Source: an uncultured delta proteobacterium | GTDB lineage: Bacteria; Desulfobacterota; Binatia; UBA9968 | Assembly: GCA_963728565.1 (NCBI GenBank) | Contig: CAVSLC010000013.1 | Location: forward strand, 256,001-320,000 | Direction: 5' to 3' | DNA: 64,000 nt | Shown: positions 2,798-25,438 of the stretch, one piece after another | Position numbering within the stretch: the first letter of the stretch is position 1 | Layout of the letters: every line of letters starts with the position of its first letter | Notes under the pieces: model-generated | What the model was told of the DNA's origin: nothing | The model's database searches: none | The model's input: the letters and a program-made list of their open reading frames with translations, nothing else | Made by a program: the position numbers and the translations under genes

Positions 2798-3916
2798 TTA
2801 GCAAAAGCCGGCAAAATGATCGAAAGAAACTTTTCTGTCCGCCACCGCTGACCCAACGGCCTGGAGATCGGCAATATACTCGATGGAGTCAAGTTGCTGC
2901 ACGTTCTTGGGCTCGACATCCGGAAGTCCGAGACCATCCAGCCCGTGCCGCGTCAACTCGGCATTGTACCGCAGATAGGTAAAAAGCCTTGGTTGGACAG
3001 GGCCTCTCGTGCCGATCATATTGCCGACTTCGCGATCCAGCGGATCTCCGGCCAGGCATTTACCAAATACTCTGCATAGAAAATCCTGCTCGTTCAGCGC
3101 CGCTGCCATTAATGCCGAGGGTATCGAGCTGGCGTTGTAAAGCACGTTCATTTCATCCGGCCGCAGGTCGGCGTTTGCGTCCGGGCTCGTTCCGGTCCCA
3201 ACCGATACAACGAGCAGATTATCTTCGCCCACCGGCCAGTTCAGATTAAACGCTTCCACCGTAGCCATCAGGAAGGCCTGGAACGCCGGGTTGTTGTACA
3301 TCGTGATACCGCCATCGACAAAGATGAATTCCTTCTGTCCGACCCGCACCACTTCGGGCGGAAAATAGGTTGGCGCGGCGGTACTGGCCCGAACCAACTG
3401 CCACAGCGGCAAATTCAGGTTGCAATCCGCGCGCGCGCAATCGTTGTATTTGGCGCGTGGATTATTCGATATCGGCCAAGGTGAATCGGTCGAAGCGTTG
3501 CGCATGACCATCATCAGCAACCCGTCGATCTTTTCACTCCCCAGGGTGGTATCGGCGCCAAACTCCTGGCGCAGCCGGGCAGAGAGTTTTTGATCTTCGA
3601 ATTTATGCCGGTAGTAGCGATTCAGTAATGACGCTTTATCGAACATCTCCCGGCCGTTTTGCAGGTAAAAGTCACGAATACGATCGATGCTCATTCGCCA
3701 GGAGAGACAGGCGGCAATGATCGCGCCGGTGCTGGTGCCGGCAAAAAAATCGAAATAATCCGCCAGCACAAAATCGTTGCCCCGCCCTAAATTGTGTCGC
3801 AGCATATGTTCTATCTTCGCCAGCACTTCCACGGTCAAAATGCCGCGAATGCCGCCGCCGTCCAGCGCTAATATTTTCTTTGGTCCTATGGCTTTGATTT
3901 TATCCGCCAAACTCAT
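2798..3916 (-). CDS. Patatin-like phospholipase
   Basis: DGGGIRG, GTSTG (catalytic Ser) and DGG (catalytic Asp) motifs. Confidence 0.93.
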   Translation of the reverse strand: MSLADKIKAIGPKKILALDGGGIRGILTVEVLAKIEHMLRHNLGRGNDFVLADYFDFFAGTSTGAIIAACLSWRMSIDRIRDFYLQNGREMFDKASLLNRYYRHKFEDQKLSARLRQEFGADTTLGSEKIDGLLMMVMRNASTDSPWPISNNPRAKYNDCARADCNLNLPLWQLVRASTAAPTYFPPEVVRVGQKEFIFVDGGITMYNNPAFQAFLMATVEAFNLNWPVGEDNLLVVSVGTGTSPDANADLRPDEMNVLYNASSIPSALMAAALNEQDFLCRVFGKCLAGDPLDREVGNMIGTRGPVQPRLFTYLRYNAELTRHGLDGLGLPDVEPKNVQQLDSIEYIADLQAVGSAVADRKVSFDHFAGFC

Positions 3917-3929
3917 TGCCGATCTCCCA

Positions 3930-5896
3930 TCACCACAAAGTCGTTGTGTCGATCACATAAACCCTGCCTGAATACTTCTGCACGGTCTCAAACATATGCT
4001 GGGTGCCGCCGGGGCCATCGCCGCCGCTGCGGTTCCAAAGACAAACAAAGCGCACCTTCTCTGGCCCCCATGCCAGCGAAGTGTAAAGCTGCCAAAGGTT
4101 TAGCCGCGCGAACGGGTTTGCTGCCGCGGGTAGCGGTCCTAGCACTTCGGGCATCACCAACGTTGTGGTATTTGGATGAGCTTTAACTTTGAAGTAGCGT
4201 TCCGTCCAGTTGCCCGGAGCGAAGGAGACCGACTTCCGCAAAAACGTCGGCTCGTCCAAGGCTAATCGTAATTCGAGTTTGACTCCGCGCTGAAGGGCAG
4301 CTTCGGCAAACAACAGGTCGCCGCCGCATGCGCCGCCGCAGAGAGCCAGGTCCGCCGCCCCCGCGTCCAACTTTTCCAGGGTAGCCGCTATCGCCGCCGC
4401 GGCGATTTTCTCTTTATCGGCAGGAAATCGCGGCTCGGGCCGGTCCGGAGCATCGATCATATGACCGCTGAATAGCAAAACCTGTCGTGGCGCCCAGGTC
4501 TTATCTGGCGGATTGAGCCGGCTTAACGCGCGATCGAGAACCGCCAGTGCAGCTTCAACTTCCTCCGGACGAAAACCCAAAAGTCCCAGCAGCTCGAGCT
4601 GCTGGCGTGATGAATTGAGTTTGAACCAATCCTTATCAGCTACCGCGACGGCGTTCTTGTATGCCGCATCGACCGCTGGCTTCGTCCCCACCAAAACTTC
4701 CAATTCGGCTAAGCTGATGCGCGCCCAGTAATCTTTGGGATTTCTCTCCAGCGCGCCACGGATCGCCCAGCGCACGCCGCCTTCCATTTCCGTGCGCAGC
4801 ACATCGGCTTTCAGCTCATCGGCCGACAGGTGAGCCAACAAATGCAGCAAGGTCACGGCATTGATTCCTGAGTAGTAGTGCGCCGGATCTTTGCGGAATC
4901 CGGTGGAGTATGCGTTGATCGCTTCGCATAGGGTTGCGCTTTCGCTCTCAGCTTCCCGGCGCATATCGACGACAGAGCTTCCGTCGCTGCTTCCAGCAAT
5001 CCACCCACGCGTCTTTTTCCACGCGCCCGCGCATCGCCCAACTCTCGGCATCTTGAGGGAATTCATCGATCAAATCTTCGATGCACTCTTTGGCATCGTC
5101 ATGCTTTTTTAGCCGGCCGAGTAATAGGCACTTCTGCCGGCGACTCTCTAAATCTCTAGGTCGGATCGCCAGCGCCTCTTCATACTGTGCCAGAGCCAAC
5201 TTGAATTGGCCCACTGAAAGCAGCGCCCGGCCGGCCTTCTGGAGTGCCTCAAGGTGAAAAACGCGAGTAGGCGCCTCGCCGGCTAGAACAAGAATATCGC
5301 CAGGACGATTGCCTCTCCTGGCTATGTCGATCCGGTCCGCCCATCCTTCATATTGTTCCCAAAACTCTTTGGCTTCTTCGACCCGGAGAGACTTCCAATC
5401 AGGCTCGTCCAAATAGCGTAGCAGATGATAGACTGGACTCACCTTGCGTCCATACCAGGCATTGATCGTATGAATAGCGACCTCGGCTAAATTTTTCTTG
5501 TCATCCTCGAGGTACTGCGGATCGGGAATCGCTGCGGCCGGGGTGTTTTTGGCGATTCGGTAACGAACCGAACGTTCAGTAAGAACATCGAAGGGCGTTT
5601 GATCGCGCCGGCAGGTAATCTGAATCACGCCCCGCTTCCTGAGCGCATGGCGCACGCCAAGTTCGTACCAGACGTTGGGATTGTCAATGGACAAGTCGGC
5701 GACCACCAGATCCGCGAGCAGCAGTTCCTGGAACATATCCGTGCGGATATTGCCGGCCCGCATCTCTTCGTCGGCGCGAAATACTTCAAAGCCCGCCGCC
5801 TTCCAAAGCCGGTTTGATCAACTCACGAAATACCGCATTGAAGTCAATATCTTCCTTGATGCCAAAGGGCATCGCGACAAACGCATGGTGCGCCAT
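3930..5896 (-). CDS. Multidomain protein: NDT/deoxyribohydrolase-like N-terminus, TPR/DUF4071 (MAP3K TRAFs-binding-like), SLOG-like C-terminus; frameshifts near 5800 and 4991
   Basis: Joined reading MAHHAFVAMPFG..FRADEE..ADLVVADLSIDNPNVWYELGVRHA, then TPR helices and YSGINA, then LLFSGHMID..GGACGGDLLFAE. About 655 aa. Confidence 0.78.
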
Positions 5897-6332
5897 GTCA
5901 TTTCACCTCATCCGTGTCGGCGATCGTAGTCCAATGTCGGCCGACGCAGTGCTATCATCTTCTCCGCGCCAATCGGTCTCCCCGCCACATTAAAGCAGGC
6001 ATGTTCCGCTGGAAATTCTTCAGTTAAGATAGATACTCTCAACTACGCCGCAAGTATAGCTTTTTTGCCTGAGAAACGCCCGTGAATTCCACCAATATGA
6101 GTCACGTTGAGCTAAGCTCCAATCGCAAGAATGGGAATAAGCGGAAGGAGCCATGATTCTGTGGTCCTTCACACTGAATCGATATGCTTGTGGGCAACGG
6201 GAACATAGATCGGGTTTATCACCTGCCTCGAGAGCTATCCCGTCAAGACTGGCCGCCGAGACAGGATTTTTGCGCTTGGCTTTCTAGCAAAAAATTGCTA
6301 ACTAATTTGGATTCTCAACTTGGAGGGTTAAG

Positions 6333-6506
6333 GTGAATAGGAAAGAGCTGGAAATGCGCATTTGGGGCAAGACGATAGCGTCGGCGAAGAAAAAAGGAAT
6401 TATTTCGGAAGAGGAAGCGCAGTTCCTGCTAGATGAATATCTTAAAGAATTTAAGGTTAAAAATGGATGGGATGGAGTAAGTCATTTCATCCCCAGGGTT
6501 TTCTGA
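6333..6506 (+). CDS. Small hypothetical protein (57 aa)
   Basis: GGAGG RBS at 6322 and GTG start: MNRKELEMRIWGKTIASAKKKGIISEEEAQFLLDEYLKEFKVKNGWDGVSHFIPRVF. Confidence 0.5.
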   Translation: MNRKELEMRIWGKTIASAKKKGIISEEEAQFLLDEYLKEFKVKNGWDGVSHFIPRVF

Positions 6507-6702
6507 GTTCTTTGCCCGCGAAACGGCTAGCTACTATAACGCTTTGGGTTTCTGCCTCTTTTTTCGAATCAAATTAGCTCGTCGTTTTCTGATGGAGCGG
6601 TCGATTCCGGATTAATCTGAGATTCTCTTCGTTTCGGCGATCTCCTTCGGCTGCGCTGTCAGGCCTTCTCGATCGCTGAACCTGTCCGACCACTGGCTTC
6701 TG

Positions 6703-7167
6703 CTATCGATTTTCCCCGGCCCGAGATTGTTGAATCGCCTCGACAATCGCGTCGGCTTCAAGACCCAGTTCCAGGGTCTCGATCAGGTCACTGTAACGAT
6801 CAGGATCTATGATCGCCTTCACTTCCGGCTCGAAGACGTGATACACGCCTAAACCCAATTCGACGCCACCGAGCGGCCCGGCATAGGTCGGATCGCCGCG
6901 GGTCATGGTTTCGAACTGCACGCGCGCCGCATCGACGTTGGGCGCGCCGAGTAGCACGACGAGATCATCCGCACCGTACTCTTCTGCAAGCTGTTTGACT
7001 CGACCTTGAACCTCAAGGTCCACCGCGCCGGCGGCAGTTCAAACAAAGCACTGAGTGGTCGCGTAGACTACCTCGGCACCCAGATTCTCGATAGCCTGTT
7101 CGATGGTATGGGCCGGCACGCCATCGCGTTCGCCGAGAATTGCGATTTTCTTGCCTCGAAGTTCCAT
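6703..7167 (-). CDS. grdA: Glycine/sarcosine/betaine reductase selenoprotein A (154 aa, Sec at codon 43)
   Basis: MELRGKKIAILGERDGVP..TQCFV-TGA(7039-7041)-TAAGAVDLEVQ..GDPTYAGPL. Homology continues across the TGA, in the CxxU motif. Confidence 0.93.
7002..7020 (-). promoter_or_regulatory. Putative SECIS of grdA
   Basis: Perfect 8-bp stem GACCTTGA/TCAAGGTC with GGT loop, starting 18 nt after the UGA. Confidence 0.7.
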
Positions 7168-7208
7168 CAGTTCCCTTTCAATCCGACTTAGCTTGGAAAT
7201 TGATCCTT

Positions 7209-7414
7209 GTTATCCCTGCCGTCCAACATAATCAACATGTCATTTCATTTGTTATCACTGTCGCTCACCTCGCCAACATGCCGATTTCATCTTTATGGCT
7301 GCCGTTCCAATAGCACCGACATGCCGTTTTGGCGGGCTGTCACTGTCGCTCTCATCTCGCCAACATGCCCCATTTCATTTTTTATGGCTGCCGTTCCAAT
7401 AGCACCGACATGCC
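7209..7414. repeat. Degenerate tandem array (~44-bp unit, about 5 copies) duplicating the grdC 3' end
   Basis: 34-bp exact repeat TTTATGGCTGCCGTTCCAATAGCACCGACATGCC at 7292-7325 and 7381-7414, with CAACATG/GACATG recurring about every 44 bp. Confidence 0.85.
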
Positions 7415-8827
7415 ATCGCTGAGCTGGGTCATCTGCCCCAAAAATAAACTGGCTCGGGCAAAAAGAAAACAGCGCTTGAATTGTCCCTGGGTTAGTTCTT
7501 GGACGGCATGCGGCACATAAGCCAGCGCCGAGGCGATATGGCCCTGGGTTGGCGCATAGCCGGGCAATCCCTTTTCTTTCATGAATGCCGCAAGATCGTT
7601 TTTTGCCAGCTTGCCCGCCTTGACCAGGACGGCCCCGAGCATCCGGTAATTTCGCTCCGCAACGTCGCCGCCGTTCGCCGGCAAGGTGATCTCCGGATTG
7701 TGCAATTCGGTGACAAATTTATCGATCGCCGGCACGCCCAGCTCTAGCCGGTTCAGCGGGTCGACAACCAGTGATTTCAGCTGCTGATCCAATGACGCGC
7801 CGGCCGATACCGGATGACGGCCGACGCCGGCCAGATTGATAATCGGGCTTTTGCCGTCATCCCGGCCAACCCAGACCGCAACTGCCGCCTGCATGTCTTC
7901 CAACACCGGAATGTTTTTTTCAAGATGGTAGAGAAACTTCATGCCGAGCTTGGGCAGAGACGATCCACCGACAACAATGATATTTTCCGCGACACCGCTT
8001 TGCACGAGCGCGGCGGCGGTGACCATCGCCGGAATCGGCGCGGCGCAAAAATCTTTAACATCGAAACCGGAAGCCATCTCACAACCGGAAAACTCGGCGA
8101 TCGCTTTGGCTAAATTGCCGCCGCCGCGCTGATAACGGTCGCCGACGGCCTCTTCCGAACAGCCCAATACAAAATCGACCTCTTGCTTCTTCAGGCCCGG
8201 GTTTCCGGCAAAGATTTCCTCAAGCGACAAAGCCGCCGAGACCTTGCCGCAGAGATTCTCCAACAACACCGTCGCAGATAGCGACTCATCTTCGTGATGC
8301 CCGTTGGCGATCCAGCCCACCGGTTCGAGCTCACTGCCAATAAACAGCTGCAGGCCGTCACCTTGAGCGATGATCGACTTCAGCTTGTTTGAGTCCATAA
8401 GATTCGGAGCAGTCGTTGCAAGCGATCTGCAAACGGTCGATTGCTGCAGAGGCGCGGCAATCTCATCCCAGAAACGGTCGAGCAAGGCAACATGTTTGAA
8501 CGGATCCGCCAGCGCGAGCAGAGCGAGAAAGAGTTTTTCGTCGACGATGCTGCCGAAGGTTTTTCGCTCCTCGGTGAGTATCGCATGCTCTCCGAACCAC
8601 GGTCGGCTGACTAACCATAGTTTCTCAGGCGCTTGTTGACCGATGAAAACCTCATTGGGCAAGTAGCCCTGCGCTTGCTGAAAGGACCTAAGACTTCGGT
8701 TCAAGTCCGCGAGACGCGCCGGATTGGCGGCAATTTCCCGTTGCGGTTTTGACCCATACCGTGTCAGACCCGGGGTATGGATCAGGACGCTGCAGGCTGC
8801 TTTTATCACAGGTGAAAAATTCGACAT
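7382..8827 (-). CDS. grdC: Glycine reductase complex component C, FabH-like subunit
   Basis: CSEEAVGDRYQRGGGNLAKAIAE, FCAAP, ELHNPEIT and GYAPTQGHI motifs. Confidence 0.92.
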   Translation of the reverse strand: MSNFSPVIKAACSVLIHTPGLTRYGSKPQREIAANPARLADLNRSLRSFQQAQGYLPNEVFIGQQAPEKLWLVSRPWFGEHAILTEERKTFGSIVDEKLFLALLALADPFKHVALLDRFWDEIAAPLQQSTVCRSLATTAPNLMDSNKLKSIIAQGDGLQLFIGSELEPVGWIANGHHEDESLSATVLLENLCGKVSAALSLEEIFAGNPGLKKQEVDFVLGCSEEAVGDRYQRGGGNLAKAIAEFSGCEMASGFDVKDFCAAPIPAMVTAAALVQSGVAENIIVVGGSSLPKLGMKFLYHLEKNIPVLEDMQAAVAVWVGRDDGKSPIINLAGVGRHPVSAGASLDQQLKSLVVDPLNRLELGVPAIDKFVTELHNPEITLPANGGDVAERNYRMLGAVLVKAGKLAKNDLAAFMKEKGLPGYAPTQGHIASALAYVPHAVQELTQGQFKRCFLFARASLFLGQMTQLSDGMSVLLERQP

Positions 8828-8954
8828 AGCTGCTCTTCAGGATGTATAAAGTATGAGGCTGCCGATCAAGAGGCGAGCCCGCAGAAGAACGTTAAGAGAC
8901 GAAGATCGCTCTCACGATTGTTCCGGGCTAACAGCCTGGTGAAAAATGGGTCTT

Positions 8955-9081
8955 GCAAGCTGCTCAAAAAGACCTCAGAGGTAAGGCGCGCGAAGTCCGA
9001 TGAGCTGAGGCGTACGTTTCAGTACGTCGAAGCGAGTCGCGCGAGCGCAACGACACCTATGAGTCATTTTCAGCAGCTTGC
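8955..9081. repeat. ~127-bp palindromic MITE/REP-like element, copy 1
   Basis: Terminal arms GCAAGCTGCTCAAAAAGAC / GTCATTTTCAGCAGCTTGC. Abuts the grdE TAG stop. Confidence 0.85.
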
Positions 9082-10385
9082 TAGTAGGCATTGCAGATCC
9101 AGCATTCCTTACCCCAATTATCGACACCGCCAATCACCATATCGCGCGCGTCAAAGGTGAGTTTTCCTTCGGCCTGCGCCACCGGCGCGCCAGGGTAGCT
9201 GAGAATCTGCACCCGGTCGTACGGGCCGACCAGACGTTGGGCTTCGGGCAGCTCCAACCAGCGGTCGCGGCTCCCAGTGCTTACCACGGCGTCGGCTTCT
9301 GGAACATAGAACAGCAGCGGCGAATCAACTCCGTCCTTGCCGCCGTACTCATAGGTTACCAGCACCGTGGCGATCCCGCGCAGTTCACACGCGCGCACCG
9401 TCAGCATCACGTCCACGAAGGCGTTACCGGAACCTAGCCAGGCCACGATCGCCCCCTGCGCACCAAGAGTCGCCGCCAGTTGCGCGGCGTTTTGGGCGAT
9501 CACTTCCTTGCCATGAAAAGTCTCGTAACGAATGCGTTGCAAAATCATACCGCTGAAATTCAAGCGCCGGCCGTGATCGCGGTAAAGCGCCAGCACCAGA
9601 GGATGATTCTGCCAATCCCAGGTAATCGGAAAATAACCGATGCCGCGGGTGGCATTGACTGCCATGGCACAGTCGAGCAACTCGTTGGGATGAACCACGG
9701 TCGAGAGCGATTCTCGTATCGGCAGACCGTAATAGCTCACACCTGAATGAACATGATGATCGTCGGTCAAACAGCCTTGAACCAAGACCACGTTCGGCAA
9801 ATCCGCATGCCTTTGGCTGAGATCGAAAACCTCTACGTTCTCGGCCTCAATGCCGATGGTCGTCTCGGCAACACGGCGGGCAACTTGGAACTCAGCGGTT
9901 TGAATTGCCGTGTGCGCATCGAGTTCCGAAAGCCCATCGCGCAGCTTCATGATCAACACCAGATGCGAAAGGCCGCCAAATTTTGACGCCGCCGCGCCCG
10001 CTCCCCATGTATCGAGGAGGGCGCTTCGCTGCACGCCCAGTCCGGCTCTAACGGTTCCCTCGTACGCCGCCGTCGCGATCACAGCCATGCCGGATAAGCG
10101 ATGGGTGCGACCGGCGCCGACCGCTTCCACCGGTCCGAGTATCCCGGGAAACACCTGACCGTTGCCGCTAACTTTCACCCGGGGCTCAACGATGTCGCGA
10201 ATACCGGTGATGCGCACCTTGTCGCCAGGACAAACCACAGCCAAGGATGCTTCGGCGATTCGCCCGTCACGCAGGATTATTTCCTCCAGCGCAGGTTGAT
10301 CGATCGCGAGCGTTCCGGCGCGGTATTCAAATGTCCGGCCCAGACGGATCTCTTTGACCGGGTAATCAGCCAGTTCGAGTCGCAT
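9081..10385 (-). CDS. grdE: Glycine/sarcosine/betaine reductase component B proprotein-like, paralog 1
   Basis: RITGIRDIVEPRVK, FPG, GRTHRLSG, HPNELLD..NHP, GSGN and EYGGKDG motifs. Confidence 0.85.
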   Translation of the reverse strand: MRLELADYPVKEIRLGRTFEYRAGTLAIDQPALEEIILRDGRIAEASLAVVCPGDKVRITGIRDIVEPRVKVSGNGQVFPGILGPVEAVGAGRTHRLSGMAVIATAAYEGTVRAGLGVQRSALLDTWGAGAAASKFGGLSHLVLIMKLRDGLSELDAHTAIQTAEFQVARRVAETTIGIEAENVEVFDLSQRHADLPNVVLVQGCLTDDHHVHSGVSYYGLPIRESLSTVVHPNELLDCAMAVNATRGIGYFPITWDWQNHPLVLALYRDHGRRLNFSGMILQRIRYETFHGKEVIAQNAAQLAATLGAQGAIVAWLGSGNAFVDVMLTVRACELRGIATVLVTYEYGGKDGVDSPLLFYVPEADAVVSTGSRDRWLELPEAQRLVGPYDRVQILSYPGAPVAQAEGKLTFDARDMVIGGVDNWGKECWICNAY

Positions 10386-10391
10386 GCTTGC

Positions 10392-11732
10392 TTACCCGCT
10401 CACCGCCATATTCGGGGTAAATAGCGTCGGTCCCGTGACTTCGGATTCCAGCGCTTTCAACGCGGTCTGAACGATCTCGCGCCGCAGCCGCGCATCGAGA
10501 TCTTGCGGCAGGCTCGGATCGCCGCAAGGATGAGGTATGCTGACGCCTTTAACGATCCGGTTGGCCCGTACCTGCTCCGCCACCGGATACATCGCGCTTA
10601 CCAAGGCTACCGGAAGTCCCGCCTTCTCGAGTTCTTTGCTCATCACAGCGCCGCTGCGACTACAAGTCCCTCACGTGGCGACAAAGAGCACGCCCTCGAC
10701 ATTGTCCTTCTTCAGATCGGCGGCAATTTCCTGGCCGACGCGGCGCATCACCGCGGGGGAGCCCTGATTGCCTGGAATAACGTAATACGCCGGATACAGT
10801 TTGCCGGCGCCGATCACCCCTTCCGATTCTAACGACCGAAGCGCATCCAGCGGCACGCCATAGTGCGGATTCTTGTTCATGTAGGCGACATTATAGCCGC
10901 CGTGAACAGCTTCCCATTTTCCCGGTTCAAGCTCTTTGAGCTCGGCAATGTTGTATTTACGCCAGTGGGTGTTGCGGTAGGTTTTGAACCGATCCGGATT
11001 GCCCCAGGGAACGACGCCGCTGGTGGTGATGACGGCAATGTTGCGGGCTTTTAAATTATCGAGAGGCGGAGCCGGCGCGATATCGTCCCAGGCCTCCATC
11101 GGCACTTCAGTAGTGAAGGGCTCATGATTGATCTTTTTCAGCAACATATCGATGGCGCGATCGGCGCCGCTCCGATCAGTTTTTTCCAAACGCCGGATAC
11201 CGCGGCTCAAGTAACCTTCCTGCAACGCCGGCCCGATGGTCTCGCCTCGAGCCAGGCGAGAGACAAATTTCGCCACCGCCTTGAGCGCATCGGTCATGCC
11301 GGCGGCGGTCTCTGTTGTCGGTAAACAGAAAACCCGAGGATCGGCCAGGTCGCGATAAGTGCCGATGGCTGGATTTTCTTCGTGCATTGCGGTGACGCAG
11401 GGAATTTCCAATGTCGTGGCAACGGCGTGACAAATCTCGATGCAGCTCATGCCGTAACGTCCGGAATTAAACGCCGGACCGGCGACTAGCGCTTGCGCTC
11501 CCTGAGAGCGAACCGCTTCGAGGATTGCCTTGAGGGCTTCCTCACTATGATCGTGAAAGTAGTTGTCCCCATAATAGATCGTGCATGCGACCTTGGTGTC
11601 AGCGCCGAGCTGTGACTGCAGCCCGCGCGCCGCGCCGGCGGCCTCTTCGATCATGCCGACAGACATGCCCGCCTTCTCTTCGCCTCCAAACCCGGCAAAG
11701 AACTGATTAACGACATGGACGATTGTGGTCAT
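10392..11732 (-). CDS. grdB: Reductase selenoprotein B (446 aa, Sec at TGA 10671-10673)
   Basis: VNQFFAGFGGEEKA, GPAFNSGRYG and HGGY motifs. VAT-TGA-GTCSRSGAVMSKELEKAGLP..IPHPCGDP joins two track ORFs in frame. Confidence 0.93.
10644..10658 (-). promoter_or_regulatory. Putative SECIS of grdB
   Basis: CGCAGC-GGC-GCTGTG hairpin with a G-containing loop 18 nt after the UGA. Confidence 0.55.
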
Positions 11733-11857
11733 CAGGAAATCCTCCTTTGCAACGACCCGTTAAATAGAAGCACCCTATCATCTTTCGCGTATTCATCGAT
11801 AGCCGCGGCCGCGGCCGAAAGGCTGGCTCCTTCGCTCCAGTTACGGGATTATCTCTT

Positions 11858-11984
11858 GCAAGATGCTCAAAAAGACCTCAAAGGCAAGGCGCGCGAAGTT
11901 CGATGAGCTGAGGCGTACGCTTCAGTACGTTGAAGCGAGTCGTGCGAGCGCAACGACGCGTATGAGTCTTTTTCAGCATCTTGC
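11858..11984. repeat. ~127-bp palindromic element, copy 2
   Basis: Highly similar to 8955-9081; arms GCAAGATGCTCAAAAAGAC / GTCTTTTTCAGCATCTTGC. Abuts a TAG stop. Confidence 0.85.
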
Positions 11985-13291
11985 TAGTAATCCCTGCATA
12001 CCCATCCCTGCTCGCCCCAAATATCGGCTCCACCGATGATCACATCCCTTCCCTCCAGCGACAGAGCACCGCGGGCTGGACTCGCAGGCACGCCCGGATA
12101 GGATAATACTTTGATCTCGTCGTACGGACCGAGTACTTTGTCCATCGCCGGGAGCTCGACGCCGCGATCCAAGCTGCCGGTCGTGACCACGCCATCGGCT
12201 TCCGGCAAATAGAAAAGCAGCGGGCTATCGCGGCCTTCCTTGCCGCCATGTTCATAGGTCACCAACACCGTTTTGATTCCATTACGCTCGCACGCCTGCA
12301 CCGTCAGCATGACATCGACGAAAGCATTGCCGCCGCCGATCCAGGTCAGCAGCGCTCCGTCGGCGCGAAACATTTTCGCCAGCCGCGCAGCATTCTGCGC
12401 GCCGACTTCTTTCCCGTGCGCAGTCTCGAAACGGATGCGCTGCAAAATCACGCCGGCAAAGTTGAGATCTCTTCCATGGGCTTCGTACAGGCGCAGCACC
12501 AGCGGATGATTCTGCCAGTCCCACGTAGTTGGATAGTATCCGCGGCCTGAACGAGTGGTGTCCACGGTGATCGCGCCGTCAAAGAGCTCATTGGGATGGA
12601 GGAAGGTCGCCATCGATTGGCGCAGCGACAGGCCATAGTAGCCAACTCCCGAGTGAACATGCTGCGGATCGGTAATACAGCCTTGGACCAGCATCACTCT
12701 GGGCAAGCCGGGAGTTTCCGCGCTCAGATCGAAGCGGCGAACCGATTCAGGCGAGAGTCCAACCGTTACTTGCGCCAGCCGTCGGGCGACTTTGTATTCG
12801 GCCAATTGAATCGCGGTATGCGCATCCAATTCTCCCAGGCCAGAGGCGAGGCGAAAGCTCACCACCAGATGCGCGTGCGCGCTGAAGCGCGAGATCTCTG
12901 CTGCGGCTCCCGTCATATCTAAAATGGCGCTGCGCTGCACGGTGGTGCCGGCGCGGATGGTGCCTTCGTACGCTGCCGCCGCAATCACCGTCATTCCTGA
13001 AAGCCGGTGCGTCGTCCCCTCTCCCACATCGGCCACCGGCCCGAGAACGCCAGGAAAGACCTGGCCGTTTCCCGAAACCTTATAGCGCGGCTCGACGATA
13101 TCGCGAATGCCGGTGATGCGGGTTTTCTCCCCGGGCATGGCCGCGGTGAGCGAAACGTTAGTAATGCGCGGATCCTGGAGCACCAGATCCACCAGTTCGG
13201 CTTCGTCCATATCCAATGTGCCGTTCCGGTAGGCGAAACGCCCTCCCAGGCGTAAATGCTTGACCGGAAATTCGGCGACATCGAGTTTCAT
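11984..13291 (-). CDS. grdE: GrdE-like component B protein, paralog 2
   Basis: Same motifs as 9081-10385; clear paralog. Confidence 0.85.
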   Translation of the reverse strand: MKLDVAEFPVKHLRLGGRFAYRNGTLDMDEAELVDLVLQDPRITNVSLTAAMPGEKTRITGIRDIVEPRYKVSGNGQVFPGVLGPVADVGEGTTHRLSGMTVIAAAAYEGTIRAGTTVQRSAILDMTGAAAEISRFSAHAHLVVSFRLASGLGELDAHTAIQLAEYKVARRLAQVTVGLSPESVRRFDLSAETPGLPRVMLVQGCITDPQHVHSGVGYYGLSLRQSMATFLHPNELFDGAITVDTTRSGRGYYPTTWDWQNHPLVLRLYEAHGRDLNFAGVILQRIRFETAHGKEVGAQNAARLAKMFRADGALLTWIGGGNAFVDVMLTVQACERNGIKTVLVTYEHGGKEGRDSPLLFYLPEADGVVTTGSLDRGVELPAMDKVLGPYDEIKVLSYPGVPASPARGALSLEGRDVIIGGADIWGEQGWVCRDY

Positions 13292-13322
13292 AATCTAGCG
13301 TGAATAGTTCACCAACGAAAGA

Positions 13323-13501
13323 CGATCAAGGGGCGAACCCTCCGGAACGAAGGCGATGGGCCTTTGCCTTGAGGCGGCCTGCGAACTGAAGTTCGGGAGC
13401 AAGCGCCTGGGAAATAATTTGACTTCACCGCCAAACACCATAAAATTATTTGAAGCTGTTCAGCTCCGCGCCTTCGCTCCTCCGAATTCTCCCCTTGATC
13501 G
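13323..13501. repeat. ~180-bp long inverted-repeat element
   Basis: CGATCAAGGGG..CCCCTTGATCG ends, with nested CGAAGGCG/CGCCTTCG and AAATAATTT/AAATTATTT pairs. Confidence 0.65.
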
Positions 13502-13529
13502 ACACCCTTGTCGTGAGCGTACCAGCCCC

Positions 13530-14603
13530 CTATCGCGCACCGACTAGCTTGGCAAATTCTTCGACGTAGGCTTTGAGATTAGGCCCGAGCTTGGGAGTTA
13601 CCACGTAGTCAGGCTGGAGTTGAAATTCCTGGAATTTGCTGCGCACTCCCTTCATCGCAACCCCTTTCCCGAGTTTGCCTGCCAACACTGTTTGCCCCTC
13701 TTCCGATAGTACCCAATCGGCGAAAAGCAATGCCGCATGCGGGTGCGGCGAGTTCCTGGCGAGAAACAGGCCCTCGGGCTTTACGATCTTCGGCGCCAAT
13801 ACTTTGAATCCCAACGGCGCTCCCTTGTCGCGGATGGCCGCGGAGGTTTCGCCATTGATAGCGATGCCGATGGGATACTCGCCTGAACTCACCACCTGAG
13901 TGGTCAAAGCGCCGCCGCGCCTGAAGCTGAGATCCTGCTTGCGCAGCTTCGTCAGATAGTCCACCGATTTCTCCCGTCCCCATGCCTGCTCCATCGCTGC
14001 CAGAATGTAGCCGGCTTCAGGGTCGAACAGCAGTTTGCCTTTCCACGACGGATCGAGAAGCGCGTCATAAGTTTGCGGCACCGACTCGGCCTTGACCAAA
14101 GTTGTGTTGTAAACCAACGCGGTGGTCAAATAATACATGCTATGCCACGAGCCGCTCGGATCGTAGGTGCCATCATAGAATCGCTCCCGAGCGGCCATGG
14201 CGTAAGAATGGACTAAATTGTCATTGATAAGCTGGTAGCCGTAGCTCGAATCGACCTGGATCGCGTCCACGGCATGGCTGCCGGCGCGCGCCTCGGTGAG
14301 CGAGCGGTTAAGGATTCCCTCGCGTGGCGCGTAGTAGTGTTTTAGATTCAAGAATGGATAGCGCGCATTGAAAGCCTTGCCGAGTTCGCTAAATTCATTG
14401 ACCAAAATAGTTCCGTAATAAACCAGCTCGCCTTCCTTTTGAGCTCCCTTGACGAGAAAATTTTGTTTGTCCTGAGGATTTAGCATGCTGACTTTCGCCG
14501 TCACCTCTGACATAGTCGCTGCGCCGCTAGTGTCTGCCATAAGAATGAACAGTAATGATTGGCATAGCGTTAAAACTCCGAGGCCCTTTATCATTTTACG
14601 CAC
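13530..14603 (-). CDS. ABC extracellular solute-binding protein (Fe3+/thiamine-like family)
   Basis: Signal peptide; EGELVYY, LLDPSWKGK and PHPHAALLFADWVLSEEGQ motifs. Confidence 0.85.
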   Translation of the reverse strand: MRKMIKGLGVLTLCQSLLFILMADTSGAATMSEVTAKVSMLNPQDKQNFLVKGAQKEGELVYYGTILVNEFSELGKAFNARYPFLNLKHYYAPREGILNRSLTEARAGSHAVDAIQVDSSYGYQLINDNLVHSYAMAARERFYDGTYDPSGSWHSMYYLTTALVYNTTLVKAESVPQTYDALLDPSWKGKLLFDPEAGYILAAMEQAWGREKSVDYLTKLRKQDLSFRRGGALTTQVVSSGEYPIGIAINGETSAAIRDKGAPLGFKVLAPKIVKPEGLFLARNSPHPHAALLFADWVLSEEGQTVLAGKLGKGVAMKGVRSKFQEFQLQPDYVVTPKLGPNLKAYVEEFAKLVGAR

Positions 14604-14745
14604 CGTCGTACCTGCCTTTCACTCGCCTAATATCATCGAACCAGTATCATTCAAATTGATTCTTAGATGCTTCAACCAAATCCGCAGGAATGGATACTGT
14701 TTGCTCCCCGCTTGATGCTTGCGTCGGTTGAACTGCAGTAAGCGA

Positions 14746-16050
14746 TCAGTAAGCATCGCATCGCCAGCTTTGACTTCCCCAATTATCGACGCCGCCGATC
14801 AACATGTCGCGCGCATCCAGGGTTATTTCTCCCATCGCTGGCACAACCGGCGCTCCGGGGTAAGTCAAAATCGAAAATTCCTTATACGGTCCGACCACAC
14901 GCTCGGGCGCGGGAAGTTCGAGCCAACGATCTCTACTGCCACTGCTGACTACCGCATCGGCCTGCGGCAGGTAATAAAGCAACGGTGAATCGACACCGTC
15001 CTTGCCACCGAACTCGTAGGTGATCAGCACGGTTTTGATGCCGCGCTGTTCGCAAGCACCAATGGTCAGCATCAATTCAACGAATGCATTGCCGGAACCA
15101 ATCCACGCAACCAGCGCGCCGGCGGCCCCGAGAGTCGCTGCCAGCTGAGACGCGCTATGCGCCGCCACCTCTTTCCCCAGGAAAGTGTCGAACTGAATGC
15201 GTTCGAGGATCACGCCGAGAAAATTAATCTGCTTGCCGTGCTGGCGGCACAATCCGAGCGCCAGCGGATGATTTTGCCAGTCCCAAGTAATCGGGAAATG
15301 GCCGACCGCTCGAGTGGCGGTCACGGTAATCGCGCCGTCGAGCAGTTCGTTGGGGTGCACAAACGTCGCCAGTGAATCGCGAATCGGCAAGCCGTAGTAG
15401 CTCACGCCGGAGTGAACGTTATGGCTATCCGTGAGACAACCTTGAATCAACACGACCGCGGGCAAGTCCGGCCGCGTAGCGCTTAAATCGAAGGCTTCGG
15501 TGCTTTCGGGGTTGTGGCTGACGGTGAGTTCGGCAAGTCGCCGCGCTACCTTCAGCTCCGCGCCTTGAATCGCCTGATGCGCGTCGAGATCGGACAGCGC
15601 TTCTTTAAGGCGCATCACCAGCACCAGCCCGAGCAGCGAACTAAACCGCGAAGCATCCGCGCCCGGTCCCCACATATCCAGGAGCGCGCTTCGCTGCACC
15701 GCCAGACCGGCGCGGACCGTCCCCTCGTAGGCAGCGCTGGCTATCACCGCCATTCCGGAGAGACGATGGGTTGTGCCCTCACCGACATGGTCTACCGGAC
15801 TTAACGTACCCGGAAACACCTGAGTTTGGCAGCCCACTTTCACCCGTGGCTCGACGATATCGCGGATCCCTGTCACCCGGACTTTCTCGCCCGGATGAAC
15901 CACCGCCAGGGATGCATCTTCGATGCGTCGGTCCTCCAACATTAGATCCGTCAAGGCTCGCTGATCCACTTCCACAATCCCGCGGTCATAATGAAACCTT
16001 TTTCCTAGGTGAATCTGCTTTACCGGAAATTCGGCGAGATCTAGCCGCAT
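14746..16050 (-). CDS. grdE: GrdE-like component B protein, paralog 3
   Basis: Start MRLDLAEFP at 16050; paralog of the two above. Confidence 0.85.
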   Translation of the reverse strand: MRLDLAEFPVKQIHLGKRFHYDRGIVEVDQRALTDLMLEDRRIEDASLAVVHPGEKVRVTGIRDIVEPRVKVGCQTQVFPGTLSPVDHVGEGTTHRLSGMAVIASAAYEGTVRAGLAVQRSALLDMWGPGADASRFSSLLGLVLVMRLKEALSDLDAHQAIQGAELKVARRLAELTVSHNPESTEAFDLSATRPDLPAVVLIQGCLTDSHNVHSGVSYYGLPIRDSLATFVHPNELLDGAITVTATRAVGHFPITWDWQNHPLALGLCRQHGKQINFLGVILERIQFDTFLGKEVAAHSASQLAATLGAAGALVAWIGSGNAFVELMLTIGACEQRGIKTVLITYEFGGKDGVDSPLLYYLPQADAVVSSGSRDRWLELPAPERVVGPYKEFSILTYPGAPVVPAMGEITLDARDMLIGGVDNWGSQSWRCDAY

Positions 16051-16054
16051 CGGT

Positions 16055-17047
16055 TTACCGCGAACGTTCAAAGGCACCTTCTTTCTCTAGCTTGCGGACG
16101 AGCCGATCGTCGACCAAGTCTTCGGCTTTGAGCTGGCGAATTTTCTCGTTGCTGGTTCCGAGCAGGCGGATGGCATTGCGGATGCCGTCGGCGTTTGGAT
16201 AAATGCGCCGCTCATAAAGCGTCCGCATGAGCTCATAGCCTTCTTCCGCATCCTCGAATCGCGCCAAACGCAGTCCTTTATGGAGACTGGTCATGACGCT
16301 GGTCTTGTTTTCCGGCTTCTCGATGTATGCCGTAGCCTGGGTCATGGCTCGAAGCACCTTTTCAACCGTTTCCGGTGACGATTTGAGAAAGCTCCGCCGC
16401 ACGAAGACGCCGGTGCTTTGATAGGGAATCTTCAAGCTGGCAAGATCGGCGAGCACATTGAATCCCTGACGCTTCATGAGCGCTCCGAAGGTATAGCCCA
16501 AGTAAGTACCCTCGATCAGGTTGGTGGCCAGCGCCTGGGCTAGAACCGCTTCATCGCCGACGATTCTGAAGTTGACTCCATCACGTTTGGGCTCGATGCC
16601 CCAGTGATCCAACACCAGCATGGTAATCATCCAGATGCCGCCGCCGATGCTTTGGACGCCGATGTTCCGGCCTTTCAACTGTGCGGGAGTTTTGATCTGC
16701 GGATGAACGACGAACGTACCGGTAAGCCGATTGACCAATCCGGCAACGAATACACCGTCCAAGCCGCCGGCCACCGCGCCAAGCGTAACGCCCGTGCCGG
16801 AACCGAAATAAAATTGCGACTCACCTGCGGCTAACGCCGAAAGCGCAACGTTCCCCGCGCGGACATACACAAGGCGCGCGTCCAGATCCTGTTTGCGGAA
16901 AAACCCCTGGTCCTGAGCAACGAGAAGAGCGCCCGCGGTCCGTTCATTGAAACTGGCGTATGAAATCACCGTCTGCGTAGCCGCTTGGACGTATGAAGCT
17001 ATAAGTAGCAGCGCAAGGGTGAAACTTATTCGAAGACGCATGATCAA
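16055..17047 (-). CDS. ABC substrate-binding protein, SsuA/THI5/NMT1-like
   Basis: Signal peptide; AQDQGFFRKQDL and LKGRNIGV motifs. Confidence 0.82.
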   Translation of the reverse strand: MIMRLRISFTLALLLIASYVQAATQTVISYASFNERTAGALLVAQDQGFFRKQDLDARLVYVRAGNVALSALAAGESQFYFGSGTGVTLGAVAGGLDGVFVAGLVNRLTGTFVVHPQIKTPAQLKGRNIGVQSIGGGIWMITMLVLDHWGIEPKRDGVNFRIVGDEAVLAQALATNLIEGTYLGYTFGALMKRQGFNVLADLASLKIPYQSTGVFVRRSFLKSSPETVEKVLRAMTQATAYIEKPENKTSVMTSLHKGLRLARFEDAEEGYELMRTLYERRIYPNADGIRNAIRLLGTSNEKIRQLKAEDLVDDRLVRKLEKEGAFERSR

Positions 17048-17072
17048 CCTCCAGGTTTCTTATACTACTAGT

Positions 17073-17252
17073 GTTCAAAGGTTCAAACGTTCAACAGTTC
17101 AACGTCGGACACAGTAGCAGGTTCGAACCGTTCCAACGTTAAAACCCAGATTGGGCCGGTGGCTTTCTTCGCTTGAACATCTGGGACAATTGGCGCGTTT
17201 GTAACCTTCAGCAAATCTGTCATTGAACGTTTGAAACTATGAACTGTTGAAC
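17073..17252. repeat. GTTCAA short tandem repeats with inverted TTGAAC repeats at the far end
   Basis: gttcaaag-gttcaaac-gttcaaca-gttcaac ... ttgaac-gtttgaaac-tatgaac-tgttgaac. Confidence 0.75.
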
Positions 17253-17271
17253 GGGACCGCACTGTATGACC

Positions 17272-17396
17272 TCGGGCGAGCAAGAAGGCTCATATGCGAG
17301 TCGCGCGATGGTCGATGAGCGCAGGCGTACATAGTCAGTACGTCGAAGCGAATCGGGCGAGCGCAACGAAGTAGATGAGCCTTATCGCTCGTCCGA
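17272..17396. repeat. ~125-bp palindromic element, copy 3 (same core, different arms)
   Basis: Core cgatgagc..aggcgtac..cagtacgtcgaagcga..gcgagcgcaacga; arms TCGGGCGAGC..GGCTCAT / ATGAGCC..GCTCGTCCGA. Abuts the ubiD stop. Confidence 0.8.
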
Positions 17397-18842
17397 TCAC
17401 GCCCAGTAGGTGGTGCGGTCAACGGGAATATGCTGCAGAATCTCTACCGGCACATATTCTTCAAGGCGGATTCTGGCGAGAGCCTCTTCCGGACATTGGG
17501 ACACCGGCGAGAACGGCCTGTCGAGCGGGCGGGTGGCGTCGATGATCATTGCCGAGGTTAACCGGGGGCTGTCCAGCGATGGATCGATGAGACTGGCGCG
17601 CATGATTTCGCCAATGATCGAGACTTGGCGGTGGGGCTGAACCCGTGTCGCCAGCGCCCAGAGAATTTCCGTTGGATTGTAAACATCGATATCCTCGTCG
17701 AAGACGAAGACGTTCTTACACCAATCCCATGTCAAAACCGCGGCGGCCGCACGACCGGGATCTCCTTCGGACATTTTTTTCATTGAGATAAACACATTCA
17801 ACAGCGCATGACGGCCGCTGGTACACACAGCTTGAACGTTGGGCACCGCTTCGCGGCATCGGCGCAGATACGCGCCTTCGCGCGCCAGGTCCATCCACGG
17901 CTTGTCGCCCTCGGGCGTGAGAATCGACATGTGCATCGCGTCCCGCCGGCGCGTAATCGCCCGCACTTCGTAACAAGCCGATTGCTGAAACCCCTGCATG
18001 CCCAGATAGCCGTTCACCTCGCCGAACGGACCTTCGACCATGCGCTTTCCCGGCAGCAACGCGCCTTCAATGACTACTTCGGCATCAGCAGGAACGAGTA
18101 GACGCTCACCCCATGTTTCCGACGCCGTCAAGCGTAGCGGCTCCTGCAAATAGCCGCCGATAATTTCATACTCGCTGATCTCGAACGGACCGCCATAGCA
18201 GGCGCCCATTTGATAGCCGGGATGATGGCCGATCACCGTGGCTACCGGGCATTCTTCGGCGGCTTCTTCGTAGCCGCGGAAAATGCGCCACATATGCTGC
18301 AAGGTCATCAGGAAGCCGGTATGGTTTCGATCCTTGACTTCCATCCTATGATACGAAGCGTTATAGACGCCGCTGTTGCGATCCCGAGCAACGCTCGACA
18401 TATCGATATAAGGCCCGCCATCCATCTCGTGATGGCGCATCAACGGCAACTGGTAAAGATCTACCTCGTCGCCGTTCTGAATGACTTCTTTAACCGGCGC
18501 CGCATCCCGATCGACGAGAATGGGCGCGATTCTTCCTGCTTCGCGGCGCAGGATCTCGCGCGCCATCTCCGCGCGATCCATCTCCTTGGGCACACCCAAG
18601 GCCACCTGCACTTTCTTCTGAGTGTTTTCCGTGCCGATCACGAGTTTGATGCCGCTTGACTGTCCATGCGCGTTGAGTGGCTGTTGGAACAGCAAAACGG
18701 GAAATCTCTTGAGCGCGCCGAGCTGTTTGACGATCGCAGTCACATCGTAAGCAAGCGGATCGACGGCCTTTGAAATCGTCACGATTTCATTGGGATAAAT
18801 CCGGCGCATATCGTCGAGGAAAGTGCGTAAGGATTTTGCCAT
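17397..18842 (-). CDS. UbiD-family (prFMN-dependent) decarboxylase
   Basis: DGGPYI, YHRM, EGPFGE, DEDIDVY..WALATR and IIDAT motifs. Confidence 0.9.
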   Translation of the reverse strand: MAKSLRTFLDDMRRIYPNEIVTISKAVDPLAYDVTAIVKQLGALKRFPVLLFQQPLNAHGQSSGIKLVIGTENTQKKVQVALGVPKEMDRAEMAREILRREAGRIAPILVDRDAAPVKEVIQNGDEVDLYQLPLMRHHEMDGGPYIDMSSVARDRNSGVYNASYHRMEVKDRNHTGFLMTLQHMWRIFRGYEEAAEECPVATVIGHHPGYQMGACYGGPFEISEYEIIGGYLQEPLRLTASETWGERLLVPADAEVVIEGALLPGKRMVEGPFGEVNGYLGMQGFQQSACYEVRAITRRRDAMHMSILTPEGDKPWMDLAREGAYLRRCREAVPNVQAVCTSGRHALLNVFISMKKMSEGDPGRAAAAVLTWDWCKNVFVFDEDIDVYNPTEILWALATRVQPHRQVSIIGEIMRASLIDPSLDSPRLTSAMIIDATRPLDRPFSPVSQCPEEALARIRLEEYVPVEILQHIPVDRTTYWA

Positions 18843-18861
18843 GGAATTGATTTCCCCTCAT

Positions 18862-18889
18862 GTACGACCGATTCATGAATCGCCCGTAC
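18862..18889. repeat. REP-like palindrome
   Basis: GTACGACCGATTCATGAATCGCCCGTAC with perfect core CGATTCATGAATCG. Confidence 0.7.
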
Positions 18890-18899
18890 GGACGATGCA

Positions 18900-19005
18900 A
18901 TTGCGGTCGAATTTTCCGCTCAAATTCCCATTGAGCTGGATTATCGGTAATGCATGGTCCGGTCCGTTTCACGATTCATCATCACGAACAACCTGGTCAT
19001 GCTAA
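18900..19005 (-). pseudogene. Relic of a REP-associated tyrosine transposase (RAYT) C-terminus
   Basis: Broken frames give HDQVVRDDES and CITDNPAQWEFERK, resembling RAYT HxIR..YIxxNPxxW; sits next to the REP. Confidence 0.55.
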
Positions 19006-23452: not shown

Positions 23453-23495
23453 AGCTTTCGTTTCGGGTAAGACACAAACATCTCGTGTGAATGGA

Positions 23496-23632
23496 TTCAA
23501 CACGTTCAAGCGTTTAACCGTTCAAGGAAATCAGGCCGTATCAACGTCGAGGATTTGGAATAACCGAGTTTATGAACAGTTATCATCCAGTCTGTTAATG
23601 CTTGAACTACTTGAACGGTTGAACTGTTGAAC
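23496..23632. repeat. Second GTTCAA/TTGAAC inverted tandem-repeat element
   Basis: ttcaacac-gttcaagc-gtttaacc-gttcaag ... ttgaac-tacttgaac-ggttgaac-tgttgaac. Confidence 0.72.
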
Positions 23633-25212: not shown

Positions 25213-25438
25213 AGCGCCTCCAGCTAACCCCAATCCGACATCGTTCGAATCCCGCGAGGCCGCCGAGCCCTACAGCCGTGGGCAATGGGATAGTGCCTTT
25301 AAGGCCACCCCACATTCCCCTAAGCGTGATGTTTCGTACGTGCGGGCCATAGAGCCAATGCGCGCTCGGGTGCCCCCGGCTTCCGGTCTCGCCGTCCTCG
25401 CTTACTGTTGACGGTGCTCAACTATTGTCGGATCAGGG

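What the first reader, a model, noticed from the sequence alone, without database searches (positions are those of the whole stretch)
9081..16050. All three GrdE paralogs have Thr at the pyruvoyl-precursor Cys position
Established: GrdE self-cleaves at the first Cys of DGAIxSGNCVSAC to form a pyruvoyl group. Seen, by eye alignment: DCAMAVNA-T-RG (codon 9648-9650), DGAITVDT-T-RS (12554-12556) and DGAITVTA-T-RA (15313-15315), each followed by a shared PxTWDWQNHP. The T-R pair is conserved while neighbouring residues vary. Inference: either an uncleaved subunit for a substrate that cannot form a Schiff base (as for betaine reductase), or Thr-based N-to-O processing giving a 2-oxobutyryl cofactor.
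Basis: partly seen in the sequence, partly recalled or inferred. Interest (0 to 1): 0.8.

Follow-up and report, generated by a model that had tools for sequence, protein, structure and literature searches.

The report
Cofactor-less selenium reductase subunits, threonine variant
Three related genes in a Binatia-group bacterium encode subunits of a glycine-reductase-like selenium enzyme that carry threonine where the textbook enzyme has its self-cleaving cysteine; relatives swap that threonine for water-repelling residues, so these are most likely ordinary uncut subunits for unknown substrates, not a new cofactor.

Summary
Observation confirmed: Thr246 of all three paralogs (codons as given) aligns with Cys242 of GrdE/GrdG and the processing Cys of PrdA. 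The Thr is under selection in its clade (81 of 83), but the cofactor idea is poorly supported. A wider clade sample has Val 8, Ala 2, Leu 2, Ile 1, Met 1, no Ser or Cys (of 132), and the sister clade has only Ile/Leu/Met. Arg247 and His213 are better kept. Across the family Cys is the exception (4 of 116 representatives); uncleaved GrdI and FarE are published, and PrdA C421S is not processed. Best reading: three uncleaved, interchangeable substrate-binding subunits, two coupled to their own solute-binding protein, serve one Sec-GrdB, with Sec-GrdA and GrdC. GrdD was not found in 41 of 41 genomes of the order, against GrdC in 30; I infer acetyl-CoA formation on GrdC's FabH-type Cys. A kept His213 leaves about 4% for a Thr-derived 2-oxobutyryl group. 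The scan found this Cys-less, GrdD-less cluster type before on other DNA (e1-6760161, e1-899850).

The parts
16055..17047 (-). NMT1/THI5-like solute-binding protein, directly upstream of paralog 3
   Evidence: PF09084 63.7 bits; lies within 500 bp upstream of the paralog-3 ortholog in 7 of 7 loci
14746..16050 (-). GrdE-like paralog 3 (434 aa), Thr246 at 15313-15315
   Evidence: PF09338 305.4 bits
13530..14603 (-). Solute-binding protein (SBP_bac_8/6), directly upstream of paralog 2
   Evidence: Pfam; within 500 bp upstream of the paralog-2 ortholog in 18 of 19 loci
11984..13291 (-). GrdE-like paralog 2 (435 aa), Thr246 at 12554-12556
   Evidence: PF09338 307.8 bits
10392..11732 (-). GrdB-family selenoprotein, 446 aa read through TGA at 10671-10673 (Sec354, A-T-U-G-T-C: UxxC kept, Ala instead of the Ser of STUG)
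   Evidence: TIGR01918 327.9 bits over cut-off 65.45; TGA at the same place in the 62 GrdB-like hits kept; the only PF07355 match in the genome
9081..10385 (-). GrdE-like paralog 1 (434 aa), His213 at 9747-9749, Thr246 at 9648-9650, Arg247
   Evidence: PF09338 300.7 bits; AlphaFold2 model pLDDT 94.3; predicted to bind GrdB 1-353, 0.94 vs best control 0.00
7382..8827 (-). GrdC (protein C beta, FabH-like fold) with Cys261 in the FCAAP motif; lacks the ~33-residue C-terminal tail of the E. gilvus GrdC
   Evidence: NF040746 510.4 bits over cut-off 450
6703..7167 (-). GrdA selenoprotein A, 154 aa read through TGA at 7039-7041 (C40xxU43)
   Evidence: PF04723 119.1 bits on the part after the TGA

Best explanation
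The three proteins are uncleaved (about 47 kDa), cofactor-free substrate-binding subunits of a selenocysteine-dependent reductase of the glycine/betaine/fluoroacetate protein-B family; functionally they resemble GrdI and FarE. Shown: homology, register, intact Sec partners, modular gene order, missing GrdD. Inferred: Thr246 is a beta-branched pocket residue (packing, perhaps a hydrogen bond to substrate) next to the better-kept Arg247 and His213, with Arg247 a candidate carboxylate binder. Each paralog pairs in turn with the single GrdB. Sec354 attacks the CH2 of an X-CH2-COO- compound whose leaving group needs no Schiff base (an onium, N-heteroaryl or tertiary N, halide, aryloxide or thiolate). 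The carboxymethyl group passes to GrdA Sec43, and GrdC cleaves it. Because GrdD and acetate kinase were not found, I infer the acetyl group ends on GrdC Cys261 and goes to CoA (weakest step, about 35%). The dedicated solute-binding proteins of paralogs 2 and 3 suggest different substrates, all unidentified.
For: Family-wide, the column is Tyr 46, Phe 14, Cys 4, Thr 4 of 116 cluster representatives. The clade of the three paralogs has T81/V1/A1 of 83, its sister (support 1.0) I3/L5/M1 of 9; the widened clade has T118/V8/A2/L2/I1/M1, no Ser or Cys, with Arg247 in 130 and His213 in 131 of 132. A Val sub-lineage of 8 clusters below 90% identity keeps His213. The Leu/Met types sit beside Sec-intact GrdB 58-62% identical to the window's. 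86 of 434 columns are better conserved than Thr246 in the clade. Of six polar residues shared by six Cys-type GrdE/GrdG and four PrdA sequences, only the His is kept. PrdA C421S and C421A are not processed (PMC11229817); FarE and GrdI are not proproteins (PMC10838667). GrdE-like 1 with GrdB 1-353: ipSAE 0.94 vs best control 0.00, runs agree in at least 86% of contacts, partner pLDDT at least 89; that mark was reached by 116 of 157 solved and 2 of 215 mismatched pairs. Modular linkage: 7 of 7, 18 of 19, 7 of 8. GrdD over cut-off in 0 of 41 genomes vs GrdC 30 of 41, positive control 3 of 3.
Against: Thr246 is strongly kept in its own clade (81 of 83; all four codons), and is one of only three such columns (Q203, H213, T246) wholly absent from the sister clade, so it has some function. 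His213 aligns with the His of the GrdE LHDTY and PrdA MHDN motifs, which the GrdI-type reference lacks. The sample is biased towards Val because the query was a Val variant. Non-Thr paralogs could act on other substrates. No substrate, cleavage or activity data exist; the acetyl-CoA step is pure inference.
Confidence: 0.8

Rival explanations
1. Thr246 is a processing nucleophile: His213-assisted N-to-O acyl shift and beta-elimination cleave the chain and leave an N-terminal 2-oxobutyryl group that forms a Schiff base with an amine substrate; non-Thr relatives are uncleaved forms with other substrates.
For: Exact register with Cys242; 81 of 83 conservation with synonymous codon variety; His213 aligns with the His of cleaved GrdE/GrdG/PrdA and is lost together with Thr in the sister clade.
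Against: Repeated change to Val, Ala, Leu, Ile, Met with His213 retained, and none to Ser or Cys in 132. Outside the clade His also occurs with Arg 6, Tyr 8, Leu 2, Ala, Ile, Phe. E150, Q206, D211, K248, E312 (GrdE numbering) are not kept. Ser fails in PrdA (PMC11229817). A 2025 review of protein-derived cofactors lists pyruvoyl only from Cys and Ser; searching its text for 'oxobut' and 'ketobut' gave 0 hits (PMC11951088).
Confidence: 0.04
2. Uncleaved subunit, but the Thr246 hydroxyl is a required substrate contact that, with Q203 and H213, defines the specificity of this clade; Val/Leu/Ile/Met/Ala lineages bind other compounds.
For: Q203, H213 and T246 are the only columns at 97% or more in the clade and absent from all 9 sister sequences; paralog expansions up to 27 matches per genome fit substrate diversification.
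Against: Compatible with the best explanation and not separable from it by sequence; the Val lineage keeps the rest of the paralog-2 loop. No atomic coordinates were available to test proximity.
Confidence: 0.35
3. The cluster is a decayed or redundant Grd system and the Thr has no meaning.
For: GrdD, PrdH-like and acetate kinase genes not found; the genome is 80.55% complete.
Against: All frames open, both Sec codons in place, selA/selB/selD/tRNA-Sec present, gene order kept across genera, GrdD missing across the order rather than in this genome alone.
Confidence: 0.04

Closest known systems
Betaine reductase protein B (GrdI/GrdH); reference here: the E. gilvus gene beside annotated grdH and a BCCT transporter (L041), taken as GrdI-type
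   Same: PF09338 subunit without Cys at the processing column; partner is a UxxC selenoprotein; GrdA and GrdC present. 32-34% identity.
   Different: GrdI-type has Phe, not Thr; lacks His213; no BCCT transporter here; GrdB far below the GrdH cut-off; GrdD not found.
Fluoroacetate reductase FarE/FarB of Cloacibacillus porcorum (PMC10838667; NF053623)
   Same: Cys-less GrdE homolog, described as not a proprotein; substrate cannot form a Schiff base.
   Different: Scores 104-120 bits vs cut-off 675; FarB lacks the CxxC-type Cys while this GrdB keeps UxxC; no radical SAM or MFS antiporter in this cluster. I did not see the FarE sequence.
Glycine and sarcosine reductase proproteins GrdE/GrdG and D-proline reductase PrdA
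   Same: Same family and register; His of the LHDTY/MHDN motif probably kept; 28-33% identity to GrdE/GrdG.
   Different: Cys242 replaced by Thr; second Cys absent; five other shared polar residues absent; NF040793 207-227 bits vs cut-off 780.
FinHI of Clostridium scindens (bioRxiv 10.64898/2026.02.13.705874)
   Same: Glycine-reductase-family pair induced on a non-amino-acid substrate (riboflavin), showing the family reaches beyond amino acids.
   Different: The passages I saw say nothing on the Cys or on mechanism; no flavin-pathway neighbours seen here; sequences not compared.

Membership tests
PF09338 protein-B subunit family | Profile score over the gathering cut-off | tested here: met
   300.7, 307.8, 305.4 bits vs 22.2
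Pyruvoyl proproteins GrdE/GrdG/PrdA | Cys at the processing position (Cys242 in GrdE) | tested here: not met
   Thr246 in all three
Pyruvoyl proproteins GrdE/GrdG/PrdA | Curated model cut-offs (NF040793 GrdG, TIGR04480 PrdA) | tested here: not met
   207-227 vs 780; 22-23 vs 700
Pyruvoyl proproteins GrdE/GrdG/PrdA | Polar residues shared by Cys-type GrdE/GrdG and PrdA (my own derived set, not a published signature) | tested here: inconclusive
   1 of 6 kept (His); set rests on 6 + 4 related sequences
Pyruvoyl proproteins GrdE/GrdG/PrdA | Cleavage into two chains with an N-terminal carbonyl | not testable with these tools
   needs protein MS
Pyruvoyl proproteins GrdE/GrdG/PrdA | PrdH maturation factor (shown for PrdA only) | tested here: inconclusive
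   0 of 41 genomes, control 2 of 2, but also not found on two replicons that carry Cys-type GrdE/GrdG
Betaine reductase GrdI/GrdH | No Cys at the processing position | tested here: met
   Thr here, Phe in the GrdI-type references
Betaine reductase GrdI/GrdH | Partner over the GrdH cut-off (NF040795) and BCCT/OpuD transporter beside it | tested here: not met
   293.8 + 64.3 bits for the two parts vs 775; neighbours are solute-binding proteins
Fluoroacetate reductase FarE/FarB | NF053623 cut-off; partner lacking the CxxC-type Cys | tested here: not met
   104-120 vs 675; UxxC kept
Selenoprotein B family (TIGR01918) | Score over cut-off and in-frame Sec codon with Sec machinery | tested here: met
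   327.9 vs 65.45
Complete Grd reductase system | GrdA and GrdC | tested here: met
Complete Grd reductase system | GrdD (protein C alpha) | tested here: not met
   0 of 41 genomes over cut-off, 26 of them at least 90% complete; own weak hit is plsX in a fatty-acid cluster; control 3 of 3
Complete Grd reductase system | Reductive cleavage of an X-CH2-COO- substrate | not testable with these tools
   needs enzyme assay

The most novel reading that the evidence does not exclude
The Thr clade is processed at Thr246 with His213 as base and carries the first natural threonine-derived 2-oxobutyryl catalytic cofactor, while its Val/Leu/Ile/Met/Ala relatives are secondarily uncleaved. A second, less radical but likelier novelty (about 0.35; interest about 0.6): a GrdD-free Grd system in which GrdC alone hands the acetyl group to CoA, fed by swappable substrate modules.
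Probability: 0.04. Interest if true: 0.85.

Novelty: new variant of a known kind. Interest (0 to 1): 0.33.

Why it matters
The Thr itself matters little: Cys-less, uncleaved GrdE homologs are known and are the majority of the family. What remains of interest is the lineage. Binatia-group genomes carry up to 27 such subunits, with Sec partners and GrdC but no GrdD. That points to an uncharacterised set of selenium-dependent C-X cleavage reactions on carboxymethyl compounds and to a different last step than acetyl phosphate. If the cofactor reading were true it would add a new protein-derived cofactor and a third processing residue. One intact-mass experiment settles it.

Tried and rejected
No solved structure found by sequence (0 hits at E<=1), Foldseek (0 at E<=0.001) or VIA-align (best Z 8.4, rmsd 4.1, 118 aligned, generic alpha/beta), so the requested structural alignment with GrdE/PrdA could not be made; the register rests on sequence. 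Residue 246 is not among the named interface residues, but GrdB was cut before Sec354, so this says nothing. PrdH absence was considered as evidence against processing and dropped. RNA: contigs 90-99% alike from four soil metatranscriptome runs cover 27, 29, 26 and 15 of 30 bins; these are relatives, contigs only, and no silent control was laid, so not used as evidence of expression. Rfam: 0 matches in 5500-19000. Literature: 'Binatia' + 'glycine reductase' gave 0 papers; the Binatota/grdB search (15 of 196 listed), the ketobutyryl search, the Thr-mutant search and the grdC/grdD search showed nothing on this lineage or on a natural Thr-derived cofactor in their listings. The library lacks most subscription papers (Bednarski 2001, Andreesen 2004, Meyer 1995 were not read). 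Substrate could not be inferred: the solute-binding proteins hit only generic families (best specific model TIGR03261, 55 vs 393). Rows dropped before counts: one search used 116 of 150 representatives (380-460 aa); one search reduced 393 sequences to 235 at 90% identity, which removed the Ile variant P0086; one search kept 148 of 198; one search counted only hits of at least 70% identity and over 400 residues; one search matched 119 of 120.
Full report
Locus. The minus strand carries, in order, an NMT1-like solute-binding protein (16055-17047), GrdE-like 3 (14746-16050), a second solute-binding protein (13530-14603), GrdE-like 2 (11984-13291), a GrdB-family gene (10392-11732), GrdE-like 1 (9081-10385), grdC (7382-8827) and grdA (6703-7167). 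GrdB and GrdA each read through one TGA to give UxxC and CxxU motifs. selA, selB, selD and tRNA-Sec are in the genome. These are the only three PF09338 and the only PF07355 matches in the 80.55%-complete assembly. Close relatives are labelled Candidatus Binatia or Deltaproteobacteria.

Observation. The three codons are Thr246, each followed by Arg247. I fetched references: P. acidaminophilum GrdG, GrdE-type proteins of A. noterae and Photobacterium (unannotated records; typed by similarity), a GrdI-type protein beside annotated grdH in E. gilvus, and L. salivarius PrdA. Thr246 falls on Cys242, Cys242, Cys244 and Cys429; the GrdI-type proteins have Phe247. Position 242 matches the pyruvoyl peptide mapped for C. 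difficile GrdE (aa 242-266; PMC9908766, passages seen).

Is the Thr a nucleophile? In 119 of 120 close homologs that could be read, 118 have Thr and one Ile. In a tree of 235 sequences (393 reduced at 90% identity), the clade holding all three paralogs has Thr 81, Val 1, Ala 1 of 83 (support 0.94). Its sister (1.0) has Ile 3, Leu 5, Met 1, and the next branch Arg 6. All four Thr codons are used, so the residue is under selection, but 86 of 434 columns are better kept and 113 at least as well. A second search seeded with the Val variant, and so biased towards it, widened the clade to 132: Thr 118, Val 8, Ala 2, Leu 2, Ile 1, Met 1, with no Ser or Cys; Arg247 stands in 130 and His213 in 131. The changes fall on several separate branches and include a lasting Val lineage. 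Exchange with isosteric Val and other hydrophobics, and never with another nucleophile, is what a beta-branched pocket residue does. The Leu/Met forms lie beside Sec-intact GrdB 58-62% identical to the window's.

Family context. Among 116 full-length representatives at 50% identity (of 150 listed), the column is Tyr 46, Phe 14, Cys 4, Thr 4 and many others. The cleavable Cys form is the minority. PMC10838667 (Results and Discussion read) states that FarE lacks the two Cys and is not a proprotein, like GrdI. PMC11229817 (parts 1-4 of 6 read; supplements not read) shows PrdA needs PrdH and PrdB and that C421S and C421A are not processed. If Ser fails in this scaffold, Thr is unlikely (inference). 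The other proposed carbonyl source, the Ser of GrdB's STUG motif, is Ala here.

Evidence that keeps the cofactor idea alive. Q203, H213 and T246 are the only columns at 97% or more in the clade and absent from all nine sister sequences. His213 aligns, with a one-residue shift against the YG anchor, with the His found in 6 of 7 Cys-bearing GrdE-like sequences and in 4 of 4 PrdAs and missing in the GrdI-type reference. But His also occurs outside the clade with Arg 6, Tyr 8, Leu 2, Ala, Ile and Phe and stays in every non-Thr clade member. Of six polar residues shared by Cys-type GrdE/GrdG and PrdA and rare elsewhere, the clade keeps only this His. I put the cofactor at about 4%. PrdH was not found in 41 genomes (control), but it is also missing from two replicons with Cys-type genes, so I do not count it.

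Structure. The AlphaFold2 model is confident (pLDDT 94.3) and places 246 in a loop after strand 241-243. No solved homolog was found. Paralog 1 with GrdB 1-353 scored 0.94 against a best control of 0.00; the runs agree in at least 86% of contacts, partner pLDDT is at least 89, and the mark was reached by 116 of 157 solved and 2 of 215 mismatched pairs. The interface uses the C-terminal half, in line with the C-terminal segment of PrdA needed for PrdB binding. Paralogs 2 and 3 were not modelled.

Organisation. Orthologs at 70% identity or more keep fixed upstream partners: NMT1-like protein for paralog 3 (7 of 7), the second binding protein for paralog 2 (18 of 19), GrdB for paralog 1 (7 of 8, one at a contig edge); kin are not independent. 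Each type is also found beside a GrdB in some loci. This fits swappable substrate modules on one selenoprotein (inference). 33 of 41 genomes of the order have the family, up to 27 matches in one. GrdC passes its cut-off in 30 of 41, GrdD in 0 of 41 (control 3 of 3); the weak own hit is plsX beside fabD, and acetate kinase was not found in the own genome. The GrdC keeps the Cys of the FCxxP motif in 14 of 14 related copies and ends without the tail of the E. gilvus protein. That this Cys matches the FabH catalytic Cys, and that GrdD carries the acetyl-thioester Cys in clostridia, is recalled, not tested; Pfam gives a FabH-type domain at 255-329.

Mechanism. Most likely: uncleaved subunit plus GrdB; Sec354 displaces X from X-CH2-COO- without a Schiff base; carboxymethyl passes to GrdA; GrdC releases an acetyl unit, possibly to CoA. 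Steps from GrdB to GrdC follow from the known Grd pathway; the substrate class and the CoA step are inference. FinHI (bioRxiv 10.64898/2026.02.13.705874, three passages seen) shows the family is induced on non-amino-acid substrates.

Novelty. Cys-less uncleaved subunits are known. This Thr/Arg clade and its GrdD-free setting did not appear in my searches (listings only; the library lacks most subscription papers). Earlier notes of this scan describe the same cluster type in other genomes; I saw them after reaching my reading, and they are not independent support. A review of protein-derived cofactors (PMC11951088, three passages seen) lists pyruvoyl from Cys and Ser only. Verdict: real observation, mostly ordinary explanation; new variant of a known kind; interest 0.33.

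Noticed in passing
window 7382-8827 and 41 genomes of the order: GrdC present (30 of 41 over cut-off) without GrdD (0 of 41); GrdC keeps a FabH-type Cys and lacks the C-terminal tail. Suggests a different end step; arguably more interesting than the Thr.
   Followed up: partly
G022, G021, G016: Large expansions of GrdE-like genes (27, 11 and 10 matches) with varied residues at the processing column and several Sec-GrdB partners.
   Followed up: partly
window 8953-9086, 11856-11990, 17289-17383: A ~135-base intergenic repeat that abuts or overlaps the stop codons of paralogs 1 and 2; 74 BLAST hits in the genome, 69 of at least 80 bases; REP-like, no Rfam match.
   Followed up: partly
L050, L051, L053, L054, L057, L059: Ile-type GrdE-like genes sit directly behind a short-chain dehydrogenase gene with no GrdB hit in 20 kb.
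   Followed up: no
L062, L068, L069, L111: Other GrdB-like genes have UxxS/UxxG-type motifs (TGA kept, Cys lost) beside His/Asn/Ser/Tyr-type GrdE-like genes.
   Followed up: no
G000:C3:59799-60440: A stand-alone PrdB-like gene (29% to L. salivarius PrdB, E 6e-27) elsewhere in the genome, with no PrdA match.
   Followed up: no
window 9084-10385, residue 158: His158 is invariant in the clade and its sister where cleaved GrdE/PrdA have Glu150: a remodelled active-site candidate.
   Followed up: no
window 2798-5929: Patatin-like gene with two ORFs resembling a split tetratricopeptide/MAP3K-TRAF-like protein (label recalled), downstream of grdA; possibly a defence-type module with a frameshift near 4948-5066.
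   Followed up: no
window 23607-25233: A phytoene-dehydrogenase-like FAD oxidoreductase appears split over two overlapping frames (24652-25233 and 23607-24926), next to an intact paralog at 21830-23509.
   Followed up: no
G000:C28:38569-39495: selD itself has an in-frame TGA, so is probably a selenoprotein, beside selA and selB.
   Followed up: no
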